In this document: piece by piece, positions 1-5,403 of the stretch | Position numbering within the stretch: the stretch's first letter is position 1 | Layout of the letters: every line of letters begins with the position of its first letter | Virus record (IMG/VR): IMGVR_UViG_2548876959_000002 | DNA length: 5,403 nt | Strand: one strand, 5' to 3' | DNA from: a virus | Lineage: Duplodnaviria; Heunggongvirae; Uroviricota; Caudoviricetes | Notes under the pieces: generated by a model | Told to the model about the DNA's origin: nothing | What the model saw: the letters and a program-made list of their open reading frames with translations, nothing else | The model's database searches: none | Program-made: the position numbers and the translations under genes

Positions 1-59
1 GACTATCACTTATTTAAGTGATACTGGTTGTCTGGAGATTCAGGGGGCCAGTCTAATTC

Positions 60-662
60 TTGGTTAACATGGATAGTATTAAGGGGTCTGGTGCATATTT
101 CCCTATTATCGCTGGCTATAGTAACTTAGGTGATGTTGGTTATCGTCAGTCCTTCGAGTTTGGTTGGACGGGTAGCGGTTCGACTCACGGTTGGCGTACT
201 GGTATTATCCGTATGCGTGGCGATAACGCCAACGGGCAGCAAGCACGCTGGGAATTTACTATGGATGGTGACTTTACCGCAGGTCGTAACGGTAGCTTTA
301 ACGATGTTTACATTCGCTCTGACTCCCGTTTGAAGATTAACAAGGAAGAATTACAGGACGGCGCATTAGAGAAAGTAAACTCCCTGAAAGTCTACACCTA
401 CGATAAAGTTAAATCTCTTTCAGATGACACAGTGATTAAACGCGAAGTAGGTATTATTGCTCAGGATCTGGAAGAAGTGTTGCCGGAAGCAGTAGGTATT
501 CAATCCACCGAAGATCCAGAACAACCGGAAGCAATTAAGACTATTTCTAACTCTGCTGTTAATGCCTTGATTATTAAAGCTATTCAGGAAATGGACGCCA
601 AATATCAAGCTAAGATTGAAGCATTGACTAAAGAGATTGCCGAACTCAAAGCAACTAAATAA
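60..662 (+). CDS. Short fibre-like protein with C-terminal S74-type intramolecular chaperone / autoproteolysis domain
   Basis: Open frame 60-662 with TTG at 60 and first ATG at 69; the true start is uncertain. The C-terminal half carries the S74 hallmark known from endosialidase and tail-fibre chaperone domains: YIRSDSRLKINKEEL (Ser-Asp scissile pair at nt 318-323, Lys five residues on at nt 333-335) followed by GIIAQDLEEVLPEAV. The N-terminal ~87 aa are Gly/Trp/Tyr-rich and beta-like. The same frame has a TAA at 54-56, so this protein cannot extend upstream in frame. Confidence refers to the gene being real; function is by motif recall only. Confidence 0.7.
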   Translation: MVNMDSIKGSGAYFPIIAGYSNLGDVGYRQSFEFGWTGSGSTHGWRTGIIRMRGDNANGQQARWEFTMDGDFTAGRNGSFNDVYIRSDSRLKINKEELQDGALEKVNSLKVYTYDKVKSLSDDTVIKREVGIIAQDLEEVLPEAVGIQSTEDPEQPEAIKTISNSAVNALIIKAIQEMDAKYQAKIEALTKEIAELKATK

Positions 663-669
663 TAAAAGT

Positions 670-688
670 CGGGGGACTAGTTCCCCCG
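670..688 (+). terminator. GC-rich hairpin after the fibre-like gene (weak terminator or RNA-stabilising hairpin candidate)
   Basis: CGGGGGA (670-676) pairs with TCCCCCG (682-688) around the 5-nt loop CTAGT. It starts 8 nt after the TAA at 660-662. No uninterrupted U-tract follows (TAATAACAATTTT), so intrinsic termination would be weak at best. Confidence 0.3.
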
Positions 689-718
689 TAATAACAATTT
701 TAATTAAGGGGTAATTCT

Positions 719-1189
719 ATGTCTCAATTTAATGATATTTTTACTGGTGGTCTGGTAAGTCTGTTCTATCACGCTGATACCACTAACACCGCTCTCGATC
801 ACTCCGGTTACGAAGAAATTAAAGAGTGTGCTGGTTTTCCTGAAACTGGTATCGAGCGCGGTACTGTAGAAGTTAAATCCTTCTCTTCTCAGTATAACCG
901 TAAGCTGGTAGGGAAACTGAACGTTCCTGATCTGACTCTGACCGTTAACTACATCCCAGGCGATGCGGTGCACGAGAAGCTCATTAAAGCTGCCGAAGAC
1001 GGTACTCGAATTCAGATTAAGATTGAATACTATGTTGATGCAGCAAAACAGACTGGTATTCGCACCGCTTTCAACGGCTTTATTTCTAAAGTTGCTATGA
1101 ACGGTGGCGATGAAGAAGTTGTAACCAAAGAGTTTACCTTCGCGGTGGACGGAAAGCCGATCAAACAGGAAATCTTCACTGCCGGATGA
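719..1189 (+). CDS. Major tail tube protein (lambda gpV tube-domain-like, no Ig-like C-terminal domain)
   Basis: ATG at 719 preceded by SD AAGGGG with a 7-nt spacer; 156 aa ending in TGA at 1187-1189. Segments LTLTVNYIPGD / GTRIQIKIEY / FNGFISKVAMNGGDEEVVTKEFTFAVDGKP align by eye with my recollection of lambda gpV (FTLAWMPGEQ / GDTRAYKIRF / [30 protein letters not shown]). Position immediately upstream of the chaperone and tape-measure genes fits. Similarity is judged from memory, not from a search. Confidence 0.8.
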   Translation: MSQFNDIFTGGLVSLFYHADTTNTALDHSGYEEIKECAGFPETGIERGTVEVKSFSSQYNRKLVGKLNVPDLTLTVNYIPGDAVHEKLIKAAEDGTRIQIKIEYYVDAAKQTGIRTAFNGFISKVAMNGGDEEVVTKEFTFAVDGKPIKQEIFTAG

Positions 1190-1315
1190 ACTAACGAAGA
1201 ACTTCCTTTAATAGAACCGGAACCACTACCGGAACATGAAGCGGTGGTGATTCCAGAAGTAGAAGAAGTTACGGCGAAAGCCACAGCAAAACGAGGCCGC
1301 AAGGCTAAGAATTAA
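1190..1315 (+). other. In-frame 41-codon open extension after the UGA stop of the tube gene (candidate readthrough extension)
   Basis: From 1190 to 1312 the tube-gene frame has 41 sense codons and then TAA at 1313-1315. They translate to TNEELPLIEPEPLPEHEAVVIPEVEEVTAKATAKRGRKAKN. There is no in-frame ATG; the only ATG in the region (1236) opens a 4-codon ORF. The terminator hairpin follows this second stop, not the first. Confidence 0.3.
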
Positions 1316-1319
1316 TTTT

Positions 1320-1348
1320 AAGCCCTGCCTTAATGGTGGGGCTTTTTT
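1320..1348 (+). terminator. Rho-independent terminator candidate downstream of the tube gene
   Basis: AAGCCCTGCC (1320-1329) pairs with GGTGGGGCTT (1335-1344), 10 bp including two G-U pairs, around the 5-nt loop TTAAT. It is followed directly by a T-run (GCTTTTTTATT). Confidence 0.6.
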
Positions 1349-1363
1349 ATTGGAGTAATCAAA

Positions 1364-1870
1364 ATGGCAAATGTCGTTAATAAGCCCGGCTGGGTCGGAT
1401 CATCTGCTGTATCGGTGACGGGTAAGCGATGGATGAAAGAAGCATTAACAGCTTTAAAAGTTCCGGCTCCGCGTAATATGTCGGCAATGGCTGGTCGTGG
1501 TATGGATACGGTTGTAGCTACTGCATCGTGGTCTACTTCATTGGGTAATAACTGGGGTGTAACTGCTTCAAACTATCCTGTTTCCGGTATGCAAAGCAAA
1601 GGATCTATGGAGAACCCCGAAAACGTGGGCGTAGGCCGTCTAATTGGCGTTATCGTTGGTCAATTCAATGGCGGTACTCCTACTATGGCTGTATATCTCC
1701 AGAACGGTAGAGCGGGGAATATAACCGTTAATTTGGGTGGTGCTGCTGTCACTGTTCCTTATAACAGTATGCAAAGTGGTTTTCATTACTACTGGTTAAG
1801 CAATCCTCCGGCAGCTTTCCTCAATAACATTAAGAAGACTGGCACTAAGCAGACTTTGAAAATCTCTTAA
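1364..1870 (+). CDS. Hypothetical protein, 168 aa, Gly/Ser/Thr/Asn/Val-rich (possible beta-sandwich structural accessory)
   Basis: ATG at 1364 with SD GGAG at 1352-1355 (8-nt spacer), immediately downstream of the terminator hairpin. There is no N-terminal hydrophobic signal-like segment and no catalytic motif I recognise. Composition and the segment ITVNLGGAAVTVPYN suggest beta-rich structure. Function is unknown. Confidence 0.7.
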   Translation: MANVVNKPGWVGSSAVSVTGKRWMKEALTALKVPAPRNMSAMAGRGMDTVVATASWSTSLGNNWGVTASNYPVSGMQSKGSMENPENVGVGRLIGVIVGQFNGGTPTMAVYLQNGRAGNITVNLGGAAVTVPYNSMQSGFHYYWLSNPPAAFLNNIKKTGTKQTLKIS

Positions 1871-1912
1871 ATTCTAAATAAACATATCGAATTAACTTAA
1901 GAGGAAACAAGA

Positions 1913-2221
1913 ATGAATATTAATGAAATGCTGAAAGCTCTTTCTCCGAAACGCGAATCTCTGACCATCGGTGGATTCACTTTCTATGCTCGCCCTATGT
2001 CAGTAAAAGAATTTAACGAACATGTTTTCAATACCGATAAAGATGACCGTGATGAACGTTCTATTCTTCGTTGTATTGAAGATGAAGACGGTAAACCAGT
2101 ATTTGAATCTATGGAACAAGTTAAGGCACTGTATACTAACGTCCGCAGTGAATTAATCGGTTTGGTTGCTCAAGCGTCATTGATGCAAGATCCGACAGTA
2201 ATTGAAAACGAGGTAAAGTAA
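1913..2221 (+). CDS. Tail assembly chaperone (gpG-like by position)
   Basis: ATG at 1913 with strong SD AAGAGGA upstream; 102 aa, acidic, ending ENEVK then TAA at 2219-2221. It lies directly upstream of the tape measure gene and is overlapped at its 3' end by a -1-frame ORF, the usual G / G-T arrangement. Confidence 0.75.
   Translation: MNINEMLKALSPKRESLTIGGFTFYARPMSVKEFNEHVFNTDKDDRDERSILRCIEDEDGKPVFESMEQVKALYTNVRSELIGLVAQASLMQDPTVIENEVK
2212..2218 (+). promoter_or_regulatory. Candidate -1 programmed frameshift site GGTAAAG, immediately 5' of the G stop codon
   Basis: The -1 frame opens at 2206, after a TGA at 2203-2205, and the G frame stops at 2219-2221, so any shift must occur within 2206-2218. 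The only Lys-slippery element there is G GTA AAG (2212-2218), one base different from the lambda G-T site GGGAAAG. The P-site codon GTA is non-canonical. Confidence 0.4.
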
Positions 2222-2250
2222 ACCCGCTTCTGAATTTCTATTTTCGGCAA

Positions 2251-2592
2251 ATGATGCGATCGGGGCTTAGTAAAGATGAAATGGATAATATGCCAATCAC
2301 TCTGTTTTGGAAATTATACATTTTCGACACCTACTTAGAACCACAAAGCCCCGCGTTTCATGATATGCAGAATGCGATGTTGCAATATTCCATGTATATG
2401 ACGTCGCAAGGAATGACACGCGAAACTGCACGCAAACTCAAGCCTAGCCAATTCCAATTAATTAGAGAAGAAAAACTCTTTAAAACTAAAGAAGAACTGG
2501 AAGAAATTGCACGCAAGAAAGAAGAAGAACGTAAAGCGGCAATGCTGAACATGTTTGATCCATCTTTGCTTGAGAAACTCAGAAGCGGTTAA
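2251..2592 (+). CDS. Tail assembly chaperone T-region (gpT-like), probably expressed as a G-T fusion by -1 frameshift
   Basis: This ORF is in the -1 frame relative to the G-like ORF. The frame is open from 2206, and no SD precedes the first ATG at 2251 (upstream TGAATTTCTATTTTCGGCAA). The product is basic and charged (KTKEELEEIARKKEEERK). It ends at TAA 2590-2592, overlapping the SD of the tape measure gene. Confidence 0.65.
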   Translation: MMRSGLSKDEMDNMPITLFWKLYIFDTYLEPQSPAFHDMQNAMLQYSMYMTSQGMTRETARKLKPSQFQLIREEKLFKTKEELEEIARKKEEERKAAMLNMFDPSLLEKLRSG

Positions 2593-2603
2593 AGGGGTAA
2601 TTT

Positions 2604-5033
2604 ATGACAAAACATATAGTAACAATAGAAGGGGATAATAAAGGTCTAAGGAGAAGTACCAATGAAGCCGCCGACCTTCTCGATAGTTTGTCTGAAAAGG
2701 CAAGTAATATTGATTTTGGTGGTGGCTTATCTGGTCTGACTGGATCTCTTCGTGGGATCGCTGGCTCTGCTGGTTTGGCTGCTGGTGGTATCGGCTTAGT
2801 TGCGACCGCAGTGGTTGCAGCCGCTAAAGCTGGCGCGGAATACGTTAAACAATATTCAGAAGTATCTAAGGCGACCGGACTCTCGATTGAATCCCTTCAA
2901 AGACTGGAAAAGGAATTTTCTGGTACTGGCCTAACAGTTGAAAAATTCGGTGATATCAACAAAGACACCTTAGATAAGATGGGTGATGCATGGGCTAACG
3001 GTGGTGGTATTGCTGATGACTTAGAATCGGTTGGTCTTAAGTTAGAAAACTATGCTCACTTCATGACAGATCCGCAAGGTGGTATGAAAGCGGCGATCCA
3101 AGTGTTCTATGACATGAAGAAAGCCGGAAAATCAATGGCTGAAATCAAGTTCATGATGGAATCTTTAGCCAGTGATTCAAGCCATATGACCAGCCAGCTT
3201 GAGAAATATAATAGTGCTCAAGAGGCGATGATCGCTATTCAGAATCAATCTGTTAACGTCACCGAAGAAAACGCTAAAAAATATGATAAATTTTCTCAGA
3301 ATATTAATAAGCTGGAAAATAACCTGAAAGGCGCAGCCATGACCATTACTGGTCCTTTGGTTGATAGCTTAAACTGGTTATTTGAATGGTTTAATATTGA
3401 TTGGGAAAAGAGTTCTCTATTCAGGGCATTAGACCGTCTGAATAAAGAAGGTAAGACCGCAACTGGTGGTATTCTTAACACCAACCATAAAGACGCTCAA
3501 AAGATTATTGACAAGTACAATAAAGAAAAGCGTTGGAATAATCTAGCAGATTGGGAAAAGGCCGCGATCCGTGGTGCTGGTGTCGATCCTCGTACTGCTG
3601 GCTTTGATGTAGAAGGATTTAAGAAACGTTTTGGTGGGTCTTATAAGAAAAATGGTGCTCTGATTGTCGTAGATGCTGGTGAACATCTGACACGCAAGGC
3701 AGATCCTAACACTGATTTAACTCTACCAAATAAACCAGTAAGACCAGAATCATTGGGTAAATCTGGCAACGAGAAGAAAGCCGAGGAAGAAGCACGCAAG
3801 AAAGCGGAAGAGGCAGCTAAAAAGGCTAAGGAAGCCGCAGAAAAAGCACAGAAAGAACGTGAGGATGCAATCAAGCGTCTGAATGCACTTGATGTTAAAT
3901 TGCAAGGGCAAGTTGCAGCGTCTATTGCTTCTCAAAACAAGCAGTTAGAAGCCAGCTTGAAAGATTTGGATACTGCTTTAGATCTGGGCTTAATCTCTCA
4001 GCAAGACGCAGCCGCGAAACGCCAATCCTTAATCGATCAGAATACTGAAAACGTATACAAGATGATTTTAGGTGCTGATCCGGTTGATGCTCTGAATGCT
4101 TTAACACAATTGCAACAAATCAGGGATAATGAGTTAGAAAGCCATAAACGGTTACTTGATGGTAAGGCTATCTCCTACGAAGAATATATGCGTCGTGTGA
4201 ATGATACCGAACAAAGTTATTCGCAGATTGAAGATTCTTTGCATGGAATGGATGGTTTTAAAACCAATCAGTTGACCAATAGCTTAGACTATCAGGACTC
4301 AAATAATCCGTTTGCTAAATTTAATGCAATCGATAAAGAGAAATCGGAAGCCGAACAAGATTATAAAACCGATAAACTCAAGATTGATGGGATCACCGAT
4401 CCGGCTAAACGGATGGAAGAATTAGAAAAACTCAATGAAAACCATCAAAAACGAATGGCTGCAATTGAGAAGAAATATGCTGATGCTCGCCAGTCAATAG
4501 CCGATGATATGTACGGCGGTTTTGCTGCTGCAATGACTCTCTTCGGGCAGGAAAACACTAAAGCTATGCAGATGGCTTTCAATGCTCATAAAGCATTCTC
4601 TATCGGACAAGCGACGGTGAACATGTGGACGGCTGCTACCGATGCATGGAACGATCCGACCAACGTAACCACAGGTCAAAAAATCGCTGCTGCTGCATTG
4701 GCTGTTTCTCAGAACATGGGGAACATCGCAAACATCAAGTCTACTAACGTTAGCGGTATGGCTCATGATGGTATCGATAATATCCCTCGTGAGGGTACAT
4801 GGTTGCTTGATAAGGGTGAACGAGTAGTTGATCAGCGTACTAACGGTGATTTGAAAGACTTCCTTGCTGCTCAAAAATCAGGCGGTGGCAACTCTCAGCC
4901 GATTGAAGTTAACGCACCTTTGAACATTAACGGCAACGTTAATAGCTCAGACAAGATGGTCATGGATGCTATCAAACGTCACGCTAAGTTAGTTGCTCAG
5001 GCGGTAGAAGACGCACAACGCCGTAAGATGTAA
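2604..5033 (+). CDS. Tail tape measure protein
   Basis: 809-aa ORF with SD AAGGGG and a 7-nt spacer. It has an N-terminal Gly/Ala-rich hydrophobic segment (aa 39-78), a long charged alpha-helical segment (EKKAEEEARKKAEEAAKKAKEAAEKAQKERE), and a C-terminal region with the motif GMAHDGIDNIPREGTWLLDKGERVV, which resembles the conserved C-terminal motif I recall from lambda-family tape measure proteins. Size, composition and position after the G/T pair all fit. Confidence 0.93.
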   Translation: MTKHIVTIEGDNKGLRRSTNEAADLLDSLSEKASNIDFGGGLSGLTGSLRGIAGSAGLAAGGIGLVATAVVAAAKAGAEYVKQYSEVSKATGLSIESLQRLEKEFSGTGLTVEKFGDINKDTLDKMGDAWANGGGIADDLESVGLKLENYAHFMTDPQGGMKAAIQVFYDMKKAGKSMAEIKFMMESLASDSSHMTSQLEKYNSAQEAMIAIQNQSVNVTEENAKKYDKFSQNINKLENNLKGAAMTITGPLVDSLNWLFEWFNIDWEKSSLFRALDRLNKEGKTATGGILNTNHKDAQKIIDKYNKEKRWNNLADWEKAAIRGAGVDPRTAGFDVEGFKKRFGGSYKKNGALIVVDAGEHLTRKADPNTDLTLPNKPVRPESLGKSGNEKKAEEEARKKAEEAAKKAKEAAEKAQKEREDAIKRLNALDVKLQGQVAASIASQNKQLEASLKDLDTALDLGLISQQDAAAKRQSLIDQNTENVYKMILGADPVDALNALTQLQQIRDNELESHKRLLDGKAISYEEYMRRVNDTEQSYSQIEDSLHGMDGFKTNQLTNSLDYQDSNNPFAKFNAIDKEKSEAEQDYKTDKLKIDGITDPAKRMEELEKLNENHQKRMAAIEKKYADARQSIADDMYGGFAAAMTLFGQENTKAMQMAFNAHKAFSIGQATVNMWTAATDAWNDPTNVTTGQKIAAAALAVSQNMGNIANIKSTNVSGMAHDGIDNIPREGTWLLDKGERVVDQRTNGDLKDFLAAQKSGGGNSQPIEVNAPLNINGNVNSSDKMVMDAIKRHAKLVAQAVEDAQRRKM

Positions 5034-5037
5034 TTAA

Positions 5038-5083
5038 AAGCCCCCATAGTCATAAATAATCATAAAACTATGGGGGCTTTTCT
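5038..5083 (+). terminator. Long hairpin with U-rich tail between the tape measure gene and the next gene (terminator or attenuator candidate)
   Basis: AAGCCCCCATAGT (5038-5050) pairs perfectly with ACTATGGGGGCTT (5067-5079), 13 bp, around the 16-nt A/T-rich loop CATAAATAATCATAAA. It is followed by TTTTCT and then the ATG at 5084. The loop is large for a classical intrinsic terminator. Confidence 0.5.
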
Positions 5084-5371
5084 ATGTTCAAATCCAAGAA
5101 TATTAAAATCACAGATTTTACTCTTAAATCAAAACAGCCTTTCTTCAAGGCGCAATCTATCTCCGGTAAATTTCAACGTCGCTTTACTGGCATTCATTTT
5201 TACGAAGCAGAATTTACCGCGAATTACATGGCTCAGGATATTAACGAAGTAAAAGAATTTGTAGCACGTCACCTTTTTGGTCGTCCTTTTAGTGTGCCAC
5301 TGTCTTACTTTTCAAAATATACAGGTGATGTACGCCAGATGGTTACGGCGGTAATGACTCCAACTTATTGA
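5084..5371 (+). CDS. Small minor tail protein (gpM-like by position and size)
   Basis: 95-aa ORF immediately after the tape measure gene, ending in TGA at 5369-5371. Size and position match lambda gpM-type minor tail proteins; my sequence recollection is too weak to assert homology. The only SD-like sequence (GGGGG, 5072-5076) lies within the 3' arm of the upstream hairpin. Confidence 0.65.
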   Translation: MFKSKNIKITDFTLKSKQPFFKAQSISGKFQRRFTGIHFYEAEFTANYMAQDINEVKEFVARHLFGRPFSVPLSYFSKYTGDVRQMVTAVMTPTY

Positions 5372-5403
5372 TAGTGTTTTATGTTCAGATAATGCCCGAT
5401 GAC

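What the first reader, a model, noticed from the sequence alone, without database searches (positions are those of the whole stretch)
2718..2837. Gly/Ala-rich hydrophobic segment near the N-terminus of the tape measure protein
Residues 39-78 (GGGLSGLTGSLRGIAGSAGLAAGGIGLVATAVVAAAKAGA) form a ~40-aa glycine-zipper-like hydrophobic stretch. Hydrophobic segments in tape measure proteins are usually discussed in the context of membrane insertion or channel formation during DNA ejection. An N-terminal location (the end expected near the tail tip or the head-proximal end, depending on orientation) is worth noting.
Basis: partly seen in the sequence, partly recalled or inferred. Interest (0 to 1): 0.35.

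Follow-up and report, generated by a model that had tools for sequence, protein, structure and literature searches.

The report
Membrane-type helix near tape-measure N-terminus
The Gly/Ala-rich stretch is real, but it is the usual hydrophobic, membrane-type helix found near the start of most phage tail tape measure proteins (phage lambda has one at the matching place), preceded by a floppy glycine-rich linker, so it is an ordinary feature and not a special glycine zipper.

Summary
Observation confirmed. Window 2718-2837 encodes residues 39-78 of an 809-aa tape measure protein (TMP, 2604-5033) in an E. coli siphovirus-type prophage. Of the 40 residues, 23 are Gly or Ala; 0 of 20,000 shuffles reach this.

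The stretch is two things:
- Residues 35-50 are a Gly/Ser-rich, indel-prone linker that AlphaFold2 does not fold.
- Residues 51-74 are an uncharged hydrophobic helix of single-span length, the only strongly hydrophobic stretch in the protein.

The glycine spacing is no more regular than the composition alone gives.

The N-proximal position is the rule. 107 of 133 full-length representative relatives have such a peak in the first ~138 residues, against 16% of shuffles. So do four cultured phages checked, lambda gpH (residues ~104-140) and phage Bas14. In 92% the first charged residue on the N-terminal side is Lys or Arg.

Best reading: a membrane-inserting anchor of the head-proximal end of the TMP, used during DNA ejection, probably at the inner membrane. 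That step is inferred. Published escape mutations of Bas14 against a membrane-bound nuclease include a deletion and a duplication of residues 144-150, which I find at the start of its equivalent helix.

It is a new member of a known kind. Interest is low.

The parts
2604..5033 (+). Tail tape measure protein gene, 809 aa
   Evidence: ORF. PHROG TMP families: phrog_13674 8.8e-64, phrog_1506, phrog_2854, phrog_339. No Pfam or NCBIfam hit. Annotated 'phage tail tape measure protein' in the identical prophage of NZ_CM149869.
2637..2705 (+). Residues 12-34: N-terminal amphipathic helix before the segment
   Evidence: AlphaFold2 helix 12-34 with low pLDDT. Helical hydrophobic moment 0.52, mean hydrophobicity -0.31. 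The motif GDxxGL...L..F is conserved in the N-terminal alignment.
2706..2753 (+).
   Evidence: Coil with pLDDT 34-39 in AlphaFold2. Indels of up to about 30 columns among homologues here. A basic residue precedes the hydrophobic core in 97 of 107 representatives; 2 of the 107 have no charged residue on that side.
2718..2837 (+). Residues 39-78: the finding as given
   Evidence: 23 of 40 residues are G or A; 0 of 20,000 shuffles reach this.
2754..2825 (+). Residues 51-74: uncharged hydrophobic helix core (GIAGSAGLAAGGIGLVATAVVAAA), of single-span transmembrane type
   Evidence: KD19 peak 1.94 at residues 56-74, the only run of 20 or more residues without charge. Low hydrophobic moment 0.12, mean Eisenberg hydrophobicity 0.68. 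Predicted helix 49-91. Conserved in length and hydrophobicity but not in sequence: identity 0.56 against 0.80 for the next domain, with no gaps, among 106 close relatives. The equivalent uncharged run has a median of 25 aa in 107 representatives.
2838..3392 (+). Residues 79-263: conserved all-alpha domain that the hydrophobic helix runs into (motif EKFGDINKDxLDxLGD)
   Evidence: pLDDT 94-98 for residues 80-230. Invariant D121, G133, E186. No PDB fold match. BFVD matches are predicted TMPs, some labelled with lambda GpH domains.
1913..2221 (+). G-like tail assembly chaperone gene just upstream. It is context, and a candidate shield for the hydrophobic helix during assembly.
   Evidence: PF16459 Phage_TAC_13 E 3.2e-4 (below the curated cut-off); phrog_344 8.3e-7.
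2206..2592 (+). T-like reading frame, in the -1 frame relative to the G-like gene
   Evidence: PF06223 Phage_tail_T E 2.5e-4, below the curated cut-off. The frame is open from 2206 and the G stop is at 2219-2221.

Best explanation
The segment is the N-proximal hydrophobic module found in most lambda-like and related tape measure proteins. It consists of a flexible Gly/Ser-rich linker (residues 35-50) followed by one uncharged helix of about 24 residues (residues 51-74). That helix continues into a conserved all-alpha domain (residues 79-263).

In the virion it lies in the tail-tube lumen at the head-proximal end, because TMP C-termini sit in the tail tip. During assembly the exposed hydrophobic helix is probably kept soluble by the G/GT-type chaperones encoded just upstream.

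At infection the TMP is expelled through the opened tip. I propose that this helix then inserts into a host membrane as a single-span anchor. The inner membrane is most likely, with the Lys/Arg-bearing N-terminal flank towards the cytoplasm. In that position it would help the three or six TMP copies, possibly together with host inner-membrane proteins, to form the conduit for DNA.

Shown here: the segment is real, it is hydrophobic and of single-span length, it keeps its position across the family, and its flanks carry a charge bias.
Inferred: the location in the virion, the shielding by chaperones, membrane insertion, which membrane, and the topology.
For: (1) Transmembrane-type properties. 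KD19 is 1.94. There are 24 uncharged residues. The hydrophobic moment is low (0.12) and the mean hydrophobicity high (0.68). The next most hydrophobic region of the protein is far weaker: summed Hessa-scale value +10.5 against +1.7 kcal/mol.

(2) Conserved as a property, at a fixed place.
- 107 of 133 full-length representatives have a KD19 peak of at least 1.4 starting in the first 120 residues (median start 57). The figure is 6-24% for other 120-residue bins and 16% for shuffles.
- 62 of 85 representatives that I classed, from the matched stretches listed, as resembling the query only in the C-terminal part also have it.
- The uncharged run has a median of 25 aa (5th to 95th percentile 17-34), which is single-span length.

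(3) Flank asymmetry. The first charged residue on the N side is K or R in 97 of the 107 representatives with such a peak, against 58 of 107 on the C side. Net charge of the 15-aa flanks is +1.0 (N side) against -0.3 (C side).

(4) Structure prediction. Residues 49-91 form one helix. The part up to residue 65 has pLDDT below 50, as expected for a helix with no partner in the monomer. It joins a domain with pLDDT 94-98.

(5) Same position as lambda gpH ~104-140.
- Both proteins match phrog_339 from the same profile position: query 50 to profile 430, gpH 119 to profile 435.
- BLASTP and hhalign place them in a similar register (offset 62 and 69 residues): query 42-171 to gpH 104-248, E 0.028; hhalign P 8e-4.
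- PMC12617516 names gpH 116-140 as the favoured predicted transmembrane segment.

(6) Inner-membrane contact in the literature (PMC13190303).
- Lambda gpH is proximity-labelled by TurboID-ManZ during injection.
- Bas14 escapes from an inner-membrane-anchored, cytoplasm-facing nuclease domain through the TMP mutations Q100P, A105E, V117D and a deletion or duplication of residues 144-150.
- In the Bas14 TMP I find the hydrophobic peak at 146-164 (KD19 1.94), and residues 144-150 (GPVGIGL) are its start.

(7) Cultured phages DCP80, Bonzee, KLB5 and V6Aob keep the segment.

(8) The T4 preprint (10.64898/2026.03.06.709160) reports predicted transmembrane segments as a common feature of TMPs, and pore formation by gp29.
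Against: - No membrane experiment exists for this protein or its close family.
- On the Hessa scale (values from my memory, position-independent) the best 19-mer sums to +1.7 kcal/mol. That is marginal for spontaneous or translocon-type insertion. No dedicated transmembrane predictor was available.
- AlphaFold2 confidence for the helix is low.
- The Ur-lambda authors tentatively placed the N-terminal third of gpH at the outer membrane, not the inner one (PMC12617516).
- In TP901-1, deleting one of the two hydrophobic regions hardly affected infectivity. The authors favoured chaperone binding over membrane insertion (PMC5099701).
- Three to six single helices cannot by themselves line a channel for double-stranded DNA (argument made for T5 in PMC10038345).
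- Homology to the lambda module is weak: no Pfam TMP_2 hit and hhalign probability of only 7-25%.
- In the window's own assembly the prophage segment is flanked by IS2 and IS1 ends. This copy may never make virions.
Confidence: 0.55

Rival explanations
1. Assembly role only. The hydrophobic helix is the docking site for the G/GT tail assembly chaperones, or the contact through which TMP copies bundle at the head-proximal end and meet the tail terminator. It never enters a membrane.
For: A G-like and a T-like gene lie directly upstream. [quoted passage not shown] Small residues (G, A, S) favour tight helix packing.
Against: A docking or bundling site should conserve sequence or an amphipathic face. 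Here only length and hydrophobicity are kept: identity 0.56 against 0.80 for the neighbouring domain, and hydrophobic moment 0.12. The run length clusters at membrane-spanning size and the N flank is basic in 92%, which a chaperone site does not predict. The Bas14 escape mutations against a membrane-bound nuclease touch this helix (PMC13190303). The two roles are not exclusive.
Confidence: 0.2
2. Outer-membrane insertion. The N-proximal helix inserts into the outer membrane, as tentatively drawn for lambda gpH residues 1-319, while other parts of the TMP span the periplasm and the inner membrane.
For: PMC12617516 fitted the AlphaFold3 hexamer of gpH 1-319 at the outer-membrane end of the trans-envelope density, and cites residues 116-140 as a possible transmembrane domain.
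Against: The authors say the placement is not definitive. The TMP C-terminus, not the N-terminus, is next to the tip and the outer membrane in every solved tail. In T5 it is the C-proximal hydrophobic stretch that is assigned to the outer membrane (PMC10038345). The Bas14 escape mutations lie next to and within the N-proximal helix and were selected against a cytoplasm-facing domain (PMC13190303).
Confidence: 0.15
3. Soluble glycine-rich linker. The whole of residues 39-78 is a flexible spacer with no membrane or packing role.
For: Residues 35-48 are predicted coil with pLDDT below 40. This part varies in length among homologues.
Against: This is true only for residues 35-50. Residues 51-74 carry no charge, have KD19 of 1.94, are predicted helical, show no indels among 106 close relatives, and recur at the same place in 80% of representatives. 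Linkers are normally polar and tolerate length changes.
Confidence: 0.05
4. A specific glycine zipper (GxxxGxxxG) drives tight homo-oligomerisation into a pore, as in VacA or the T6SS effector Tde1.
For: Loose motifs are present (G40-G44-S48, G47-G51-S55, A53-G57-G61). A glycine zipper is needed for Tde1 translocation (title of PMC10240207, listed; the paper was not read).
Against: The motif counts are what the composition gives: 62%, 65% and 23% of within-segment shuffles reach them. The glycine positions are not kept in register in distant homologues. Half of the motifs lie in the part predicted to be disordered.
Confidence: 0.05

Closest known systems
Phage lambda gpH, N-proximal hydrophobic stretch (residues ~104-140, inside Pfam TMP_2 PF06791)
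   Same: It is Gly/Ala-rich and uncharged, preceded by [FL]RG and followed by a helical domain. It lies at the same profile position in phrog_339 and in a similar register (offset 62 and 69 residues) by BLASTP and hhalign. It is the favoured predicted transmembrane segment of gpH (PMC12617516). The C-terminus of the protein is at the tail tip.
   Different: In lambda it starts about 65 residues further from the N-terminus. The query does not reach any Pfam threshold, TMP_2 included. Sequence similarity is marginal, so homology of the module is suggested and not proven.
Phage Bas14 (TheodorHerzl) TMP, residues 144-168
   Same: An N-proximal hydrophobic helix with the same KD19 peak value (1.94). 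Published escape mutations against the membrane nuclease SNIPE fall just before it and at its start (PMC13190303). This is the best available functional hint for this kind of segment.
   Different: The Bas14 TMP is lambda-type in its sequence motifs and is not a close relative of the query. No such genetics exists for the query.
Phage T5 pb2 hydrophobic stretch
   Same: A hydrophobic segment of a siphophage TMP proposed to insert into a host membrane and form part of the DNA channel (PMC10038345).
   Different: In T5 it is 46 residues (two helices), lies near the C-terminus next to the tip, and is assigned to the outer membrane. Here there is one helix of about 24 residues at the opposite end of the protein.
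Phage T4 gp29 predicted transmembrane segment (residues 207-246)
   Same: A predicted transmembrane segment in a TMP, lying N-terminal to a helical-bundle domain, with an N-terminal helical region closest to the DNA end. The TMP is implicated in inner-membrane pore formation (bioRxiv 10.64898/2026.03.06.709160).
   Different: T4 is a myovirus. The segment lies about 35% along the chain. No sequence relationship was tested or seen.
Lactococcal phage TP901-1 TMP hydrophobic regions (390-460 and 591-679)
   Same: Hydrophobic, predicted membrane-spanning stretches in a TMP. The first region is essential (PMC5099701).
   Different: They lie mid-protein, have three predicted spans each, and belong to a phage of a Gram-positive host. 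The authors favour a chaperone-binding role.

Membership tests
Phage tail tape measure protein | Significant similarity to TMP profile families | tested here: met
   phrog_13674 E 8.8e-64 over residues 24-802, plus eight further PHROG families annotated as TMP. BFVD fold matches are predicted TMPs.
Phage tail tape measure protein | Gene lies after the tail tube and G/T chaperone genes and before the distal tail and tail tip genes | tested here: met
   Window gene order. The full prophage context is in NZ_CM149869 and NZ_CP071263.
Phage tail tape measure protein | Sits in the tail-tube lumen and sets tail length | not testable with these tools
   Needs virions, electron microscopy and deletion mutants.
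Lambda gpH-type N-terminal module (Pfam TMP_2, PF06791) | Match to PF06791 above the gathering score | tested here: not met
   No Pfam family at E up to 0.1 for the query. Lambda gpH, P0252 and P0268 score 2.4e-69 to 1.7e-75.
Lambda gpH-type N-terminal module (Pfam TMP_2, PF06791) | Profile-level homology of the hydrophobic helix plus the following domain | tested here: inconclusive
   A shared phrog_339 match starts at equivalent positions. hhalign gives a similar register but probability of only 6.8% and 24.6%. BLASTP E 0.028.
Single-span transmembrane helix | At least 19 uncharged residues with high mean hydrophobicity and low amphipathicity | tested here: met
   24 uncharged residues, KD19 1.94, Eisenberg mean hydrophobicity 0.68, hydrophobic moment 0.12.
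Single-span transmembrane helix | Predicted free energy of insertion at or below zero, or a positive call by a dedicated predictor | tested here: inconclusive
   +1.7 kcal/mol with a position-independent Hessa scale recalled from memory. DeepTMHMM, TOPCONS and the dG predictor were not available.
Single-span transmembrane helix | Physically inserted in a membrane | not testable with these tools
   Needs fractionation, protease protection or cross-linking during infection.
Glycine zipper (GxxxGxxxG-type packing motif) | Periodic small residues beyond what the composition gives, kept in register among homologues | tested here: not met
   62%, 65% and 23% of within-segment shuffles reach the observed motif counts. 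The Gly positions are not aligned in distant homologues.
T5 pb2-type two-helix hydrophobic hairpin | About 40 or more contiguous hydrophobic residues able to span a membrane twice | tested here: not met
   R50 interrupts the stretch. Residues 39-49 are too short and too polar. The uncharged run is 24 aa, with a family median of 25 aa and a 95th percentile of 34.

The most novel reading that the evidence does not exclude
Across lambda-like TMPs and this Pfam-less TMP family, the N-proximal helix with its basic N-flank could be the universal element that spans the inner membrane with the N-terminus inside. If so, the head-proximal end of the tape measure, which abuts the DNA end in the virion, would breach the cytoplasmic membrane and lead the DNA in. 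It would also be the surface that membrane-bound defences such as SNIPE, and some superinfection-exclusion proteins, read.
Probability: 0.3. Interest if true: 0.55.

Novelty: new member of a known kind. Interest (0 to 1): 0.2.

Why it matters
How siphophage DNA crosses the inner membrane is still open, and the tape measure protein is the prime candidate for the conduit. This finding adds no new kind of element.

The survey behind it does yield one simple, testable regularity. About 80% of 133 diverse relatives carry one single-span-length hydrophobic helix 40-100 residues from the N-terminus, and its N-flank is basic in 92% of those that have it. That points to a defined topology. It also fits published escape mutations of phage Bas14 against a membrane-bound nuclease.

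For annotation, the segment should be labelled 'N-proximal hydrophobic helix of the TMP', not 'glycine zipper'.

Tried and rejected
- Pfam and NCBIfam scans of the TMP gave nothing.
- A sequence search of the PDB gave only chance hits, to designed helical proteins and to a capsid protein through low-complexity sequence.
- A Foldseek search of the PDB with the model of residues 1-300 gave no match at E up to 0.001.
- The glycine-zipper idea was rejected after the within-segment shuffles.
- The two-helix hairpin idea (as in T5) was rejected because the uncharged run is only 24 aa.
- I tried to read Xu et al. 2014 (PMC3907469) on where gpG binds gpH. The paper is not held.
- One guess of the Bas14 accession was wrong (MZ501064 is Bas67) and one (MZ501106, Bas43) served only to locate the alphabetical neighbour, before MZ501107 was found.
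- The tblastn hits in phages start at residue ~79 only because the low-complexity filter masks the segment. The annotated proteins do contain it.
- The first MAFFT run on the close relatives timed out and was repeated with faster settings.
- The 55-nt window ends were not found in the loci fetched up to then. The left end was then identified as IS2 through a Stx-phage record.
Full report
WHAT THE WINDOW IS. The 5,403-nt window carries part of a siphovirus-type tail module:
- the C-terminal part of a long tail fibre with a Peptidase_S74 chaperone domain (60-662);
- a tail tube protein (719-1189);
- a Gp38-like adhesin (1364-1870);
- a G-like chaperone (1913-2221);
- a T-like reading frame in the -1 frame (to 2592);
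- an 809-aa tape measure protein (TMP, 2604-5033);
- the start of the next tail gene (5084 onwards).

Nucleotides 56-5349 are 100% identical to a prophage of E. coli HCP5S3_I4. They are 92-97% identical to prophages in 16 other complete E. coli genomes. In those genomes the module sits between terminase, portal and capsid genes on one side and distal-tail and tail-tip genes on the other. The last 54-55 nt at each end of the window are IS termini: IS2 on the left and IS1 on the right.

THE OBSERVATION. Twenty-three of the 40 residues are Gly or Ala, against 20% in the whole protein. None of 20,000 shuffles of the protein reaches that density in any 40-residue window. Residues 56-74 give the only Kyte-Doolittle 19-residue peak above 1.0 in the protein (1.94).

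ANATOMY. The stretch is not one unit.
- Linker. In an alignment of 38 N-terminal regions from representatives at 22-69% identity, residues 35-50 fall in a Gly/Ser/Thr-rich zone with large indels (alignment A1). AlphaFold2, given A1, predicts coil for residues 35-48 with pLDDT below 40.
- Helix. AlphaFold2 then predicts a single helix from residue 49 to 91. Its confidence is low up to residue 65. It runs into an all-alpha domain with pLDDT 94-98 for residues 80-230.
- Core. Residues 51-74 have high mean hydrophobicity (Eisenberg 0.68) and almost no amphipathicity (moment 0.12).
- Conservation among close relatives. Among 106 relatives from E. coli and Shigella the core has no indels, but it is less conserved in sequence (0.56) than the following domain (0.80). 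It occurs in three main allelic forms that keep length and hydrophobic character.

The 'zipper' spacing of the glycines is not special. Shuffling the 40 residues gives as many small-xxx-small, GxxxG, or GxxG plus GxxxG motifs in 62%, 65% and 23% of trials. The glycine positions do not stay in register in distant homologues.

HOW GENERAL IT IS. An exhaustive HMMER search of 1.84 billion cluster representatives gave 3,362 relatives at E up to 0.001. I analysed the 133 full-length proteins among the best 150.
- 107 (80%) have a KD19 peak of at least 1.4 that starts within the first 120 residues, with a median start at residue 57.
- The same criterion is met by 6-24% of the other 120-residue bins of the same proteins, and by 16% of shuffled versions.
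- 62 of the 85 representatives that I classed, from the matched stretches listed, as resembling the query only in the C-terminal part also have it.
- The uncharged run around the peak has a median of 25 residues (5th to 95th percentile 17-34). That is the length of one membrane span, not of a hairpin.
- The first charged residue on the N-terminal side is Lys or Arg in 97 of those 107 (2 have no charged residue on that side). On the C-terminal side it is Lys or Arg in only 58 of 107. The 15-residue flanks carry +1.0 and -0.3 net charge.

Four cultured phages with related TMPs all carry the segment: Escherichia DCP80, Serratia Bonzee, Klebsiella KLB5 and Vibrio V6Aob. The tblastn alignments start at residue ~79 only because the low-complexity filter masks it.

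RELATION TO LAMBDA. Lambda gpH has the same kind of stretch at residues ~104-140 (FGGMIPMFRGLAGAITLPMVGATSLAVATGALAYAWYQ; KD19 1.59). It lies inside Pfam TMP_2 (residues 54-256).
- The query has no Pfam hit.
- Both proteins match phrog_339 from equivalent points: query residue 50 to profile 430, gpH residue 119 to profile 435, and both run to the C-terminus.
- The best pairwise BLASTP alignment is exactly this region (query 42-171 to gpH 104-248, E 0.028).
- Profile-profile comparison gives a similar register (the residue offset is 69, against 62 in BLASTP), but only 7-25% probability.

I take this as positional equivalence with suggestive, unproven homology. The Ur-lambda study calls gpH 116-140 the favoured predicted transmembrane segment (PMC12617516).

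ORIENTATION. In lambda, T5 and JBD30 the C-terminal helices of the TMP are resolved in the tail tip (PMC12617516, PMC10721106, PMC10038345, PMC11445458). By homology of the C-terminal half, the query's N-proximal helix lies at the head-proximal end of the tube. This is an inference.

MECHANISM. The properties fit a single-span membrane helix better than a linker, a chaperone site or a zipper. Length and hydrophobicity are conserved without sequence conservation. There is no amphipathic face. The N-flank is basic.

Published work supports a membrane role for TMPs:
- Lambda gpH* becomes protease-resistant in LamB liposomes and builds the trans-envelope channel (PMC12617516).
- T5 pb2 has a 46-residue hydrophobic stretch assigned to the outer membrane (PMC10038345).
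- T4 gp29 has a predicted transmembrane segment and forms pores. The same preprint states that predicted transmembrane helices are common in TMPs (bioRxiv 10.64898/2026.03.06.709160).

The most specific hint comes from the SNIPE study (PMC13190303). Lambda gpH is labelled by TurboID-ManZ at the inner membrane during injection. Bas14 escapes an inner-membrane-anchored, cytoplasm-facing domain through the TMP changes Q100P, A105E, V117D and a deletion or duplication of residues 144-150. I fetched the Bas14 TMP (MZ501107) and confirmed that residues 100, 105 and 117 are Q, A and V. Its only strong hydrophobic peak is at 146-164 (KD19 1.94), and residues 144-150 (GPVGIGL) are the start of that helix.

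So the N-flank and the start of the equivalent helix are what a cytoplasm-facing defence protein senses. This fits a helix that spans the inner membrane with the N-terminus inside. The link is my inference, not a claim of that paper.

Points against:
- The Hessa-scale sum is +1.7 kcal/mol, which is marginal. The scale values are from my memory.
- The Ur-lambda authors tentatively put the N-terminal third of gpH at the outer membrane.
- In TP901-1, chaperone binding was preferred for the hydrophobic regions (PMC5099701).
- Three to six helices cannot line a DNA channel alone. The helix is therefore more likely an anchor, or a partner of host proteins, than a pore.

VERDICT. The finding is a correct observation of an ordinary and widespread TMP feature. 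Its noteworthy aspects (N-terminal place, 'zipper') are respectively the norm and a by-product of composition. It is a new member of a known kind. Interest is low (0.2). The family-wide regularities (position, length, basic N-flank) are a modest by-product that could guide topology experiments.

Noticed in passing
window 1-55 and 5350-5403: The window ends are insertion-sequence termini: IS2 on the left and IS1 on the right. Each is about 55 nt long, which looks like the k-mer overlap of a short-read assembly. The tail fibre gene and the gene after the TMP are therefore cut at IS boundaries in this genome. The otherwise identical prophage in NZ_CM149869 is contiguous here, but it carries two IS2 copies elsewhere.
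   Followed up: partly
window 60-662 and 1364-1870 (full context L001 8999-13815): Unusual tail module. A ~1,200-aa long tail fibre of the T4 gp37 type, with a Peptidase_S74 chaperone domain, lies upstream of the tail tube gene. A T-even-type Gp38 adhesin gene (PF21721, E 2.1e-15) lies between the tail tube and chaperone genes of a siphovirus-type tail.
   Followed up: no
window 2206-2221: The T-like frame is -1 relative to the G-like chaperone, as expected for a G/GT frameshift. However, the two frames overlap by only 13 nt before the G stop codon, and no canonical XXXYYYZ slippery heptamer is present there (sequence GAAAACGAGGTAAAGTAA).
   Followed up: partly
window 2838-3392 (TMP residues 79-263): A very confidently predicted all-alpha domain (pLDDT 94-98 for residues 80-230) with the conserved motif EKFGDINKDxLDxLGD and invariant D121, G133 and E186. 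It has no Pfam or NCBIfam family and no PDB fold match. BFVD matches are other predicted TMPs. Its function is unknown.
   Followed up: partly
window 2781-2788 (+): A perfect Chi site (GCTGGTGG) lies inside the segment, spanning the Ala-Gly-Gly codons GCT GGT GGT. It is the only one in the window. 19 of 200 shuffles have at least one, so it is probably a by-product of codon choice.
   Followed up: yes
window 3735-3875 (TMP residues ~378-424): A Lys/Glu/Ala-rich, low-complexity helical stretch (KKAEEEARKKAEEAAKKAKEAAEKAQKERED). It produced the only PDB 'hits', to de novo designed helical proteins, which are compositional.
   Followed up: no
L004 (PQ671644.1, Escherichia phage DCP80) 2243-4657: This record is classified as Straboviridae/Gaprivervirus (140,978 bp). 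It nevertheless encodes the closest cultured-phage relative of this siphovirus-type TMP (36.6% identity over 70% of the query), annotated as a hypothetical protein. Either the taxonomy or the assembly of the record may be wrong.
   Followed up: no
protein P0088: A TMP 71% identical to the query is labelled by its source as coming from a Veillonella sp. metagenome-assembled genome. This is probably a binning error for an E. coli prophage contig.
   Followed up: no
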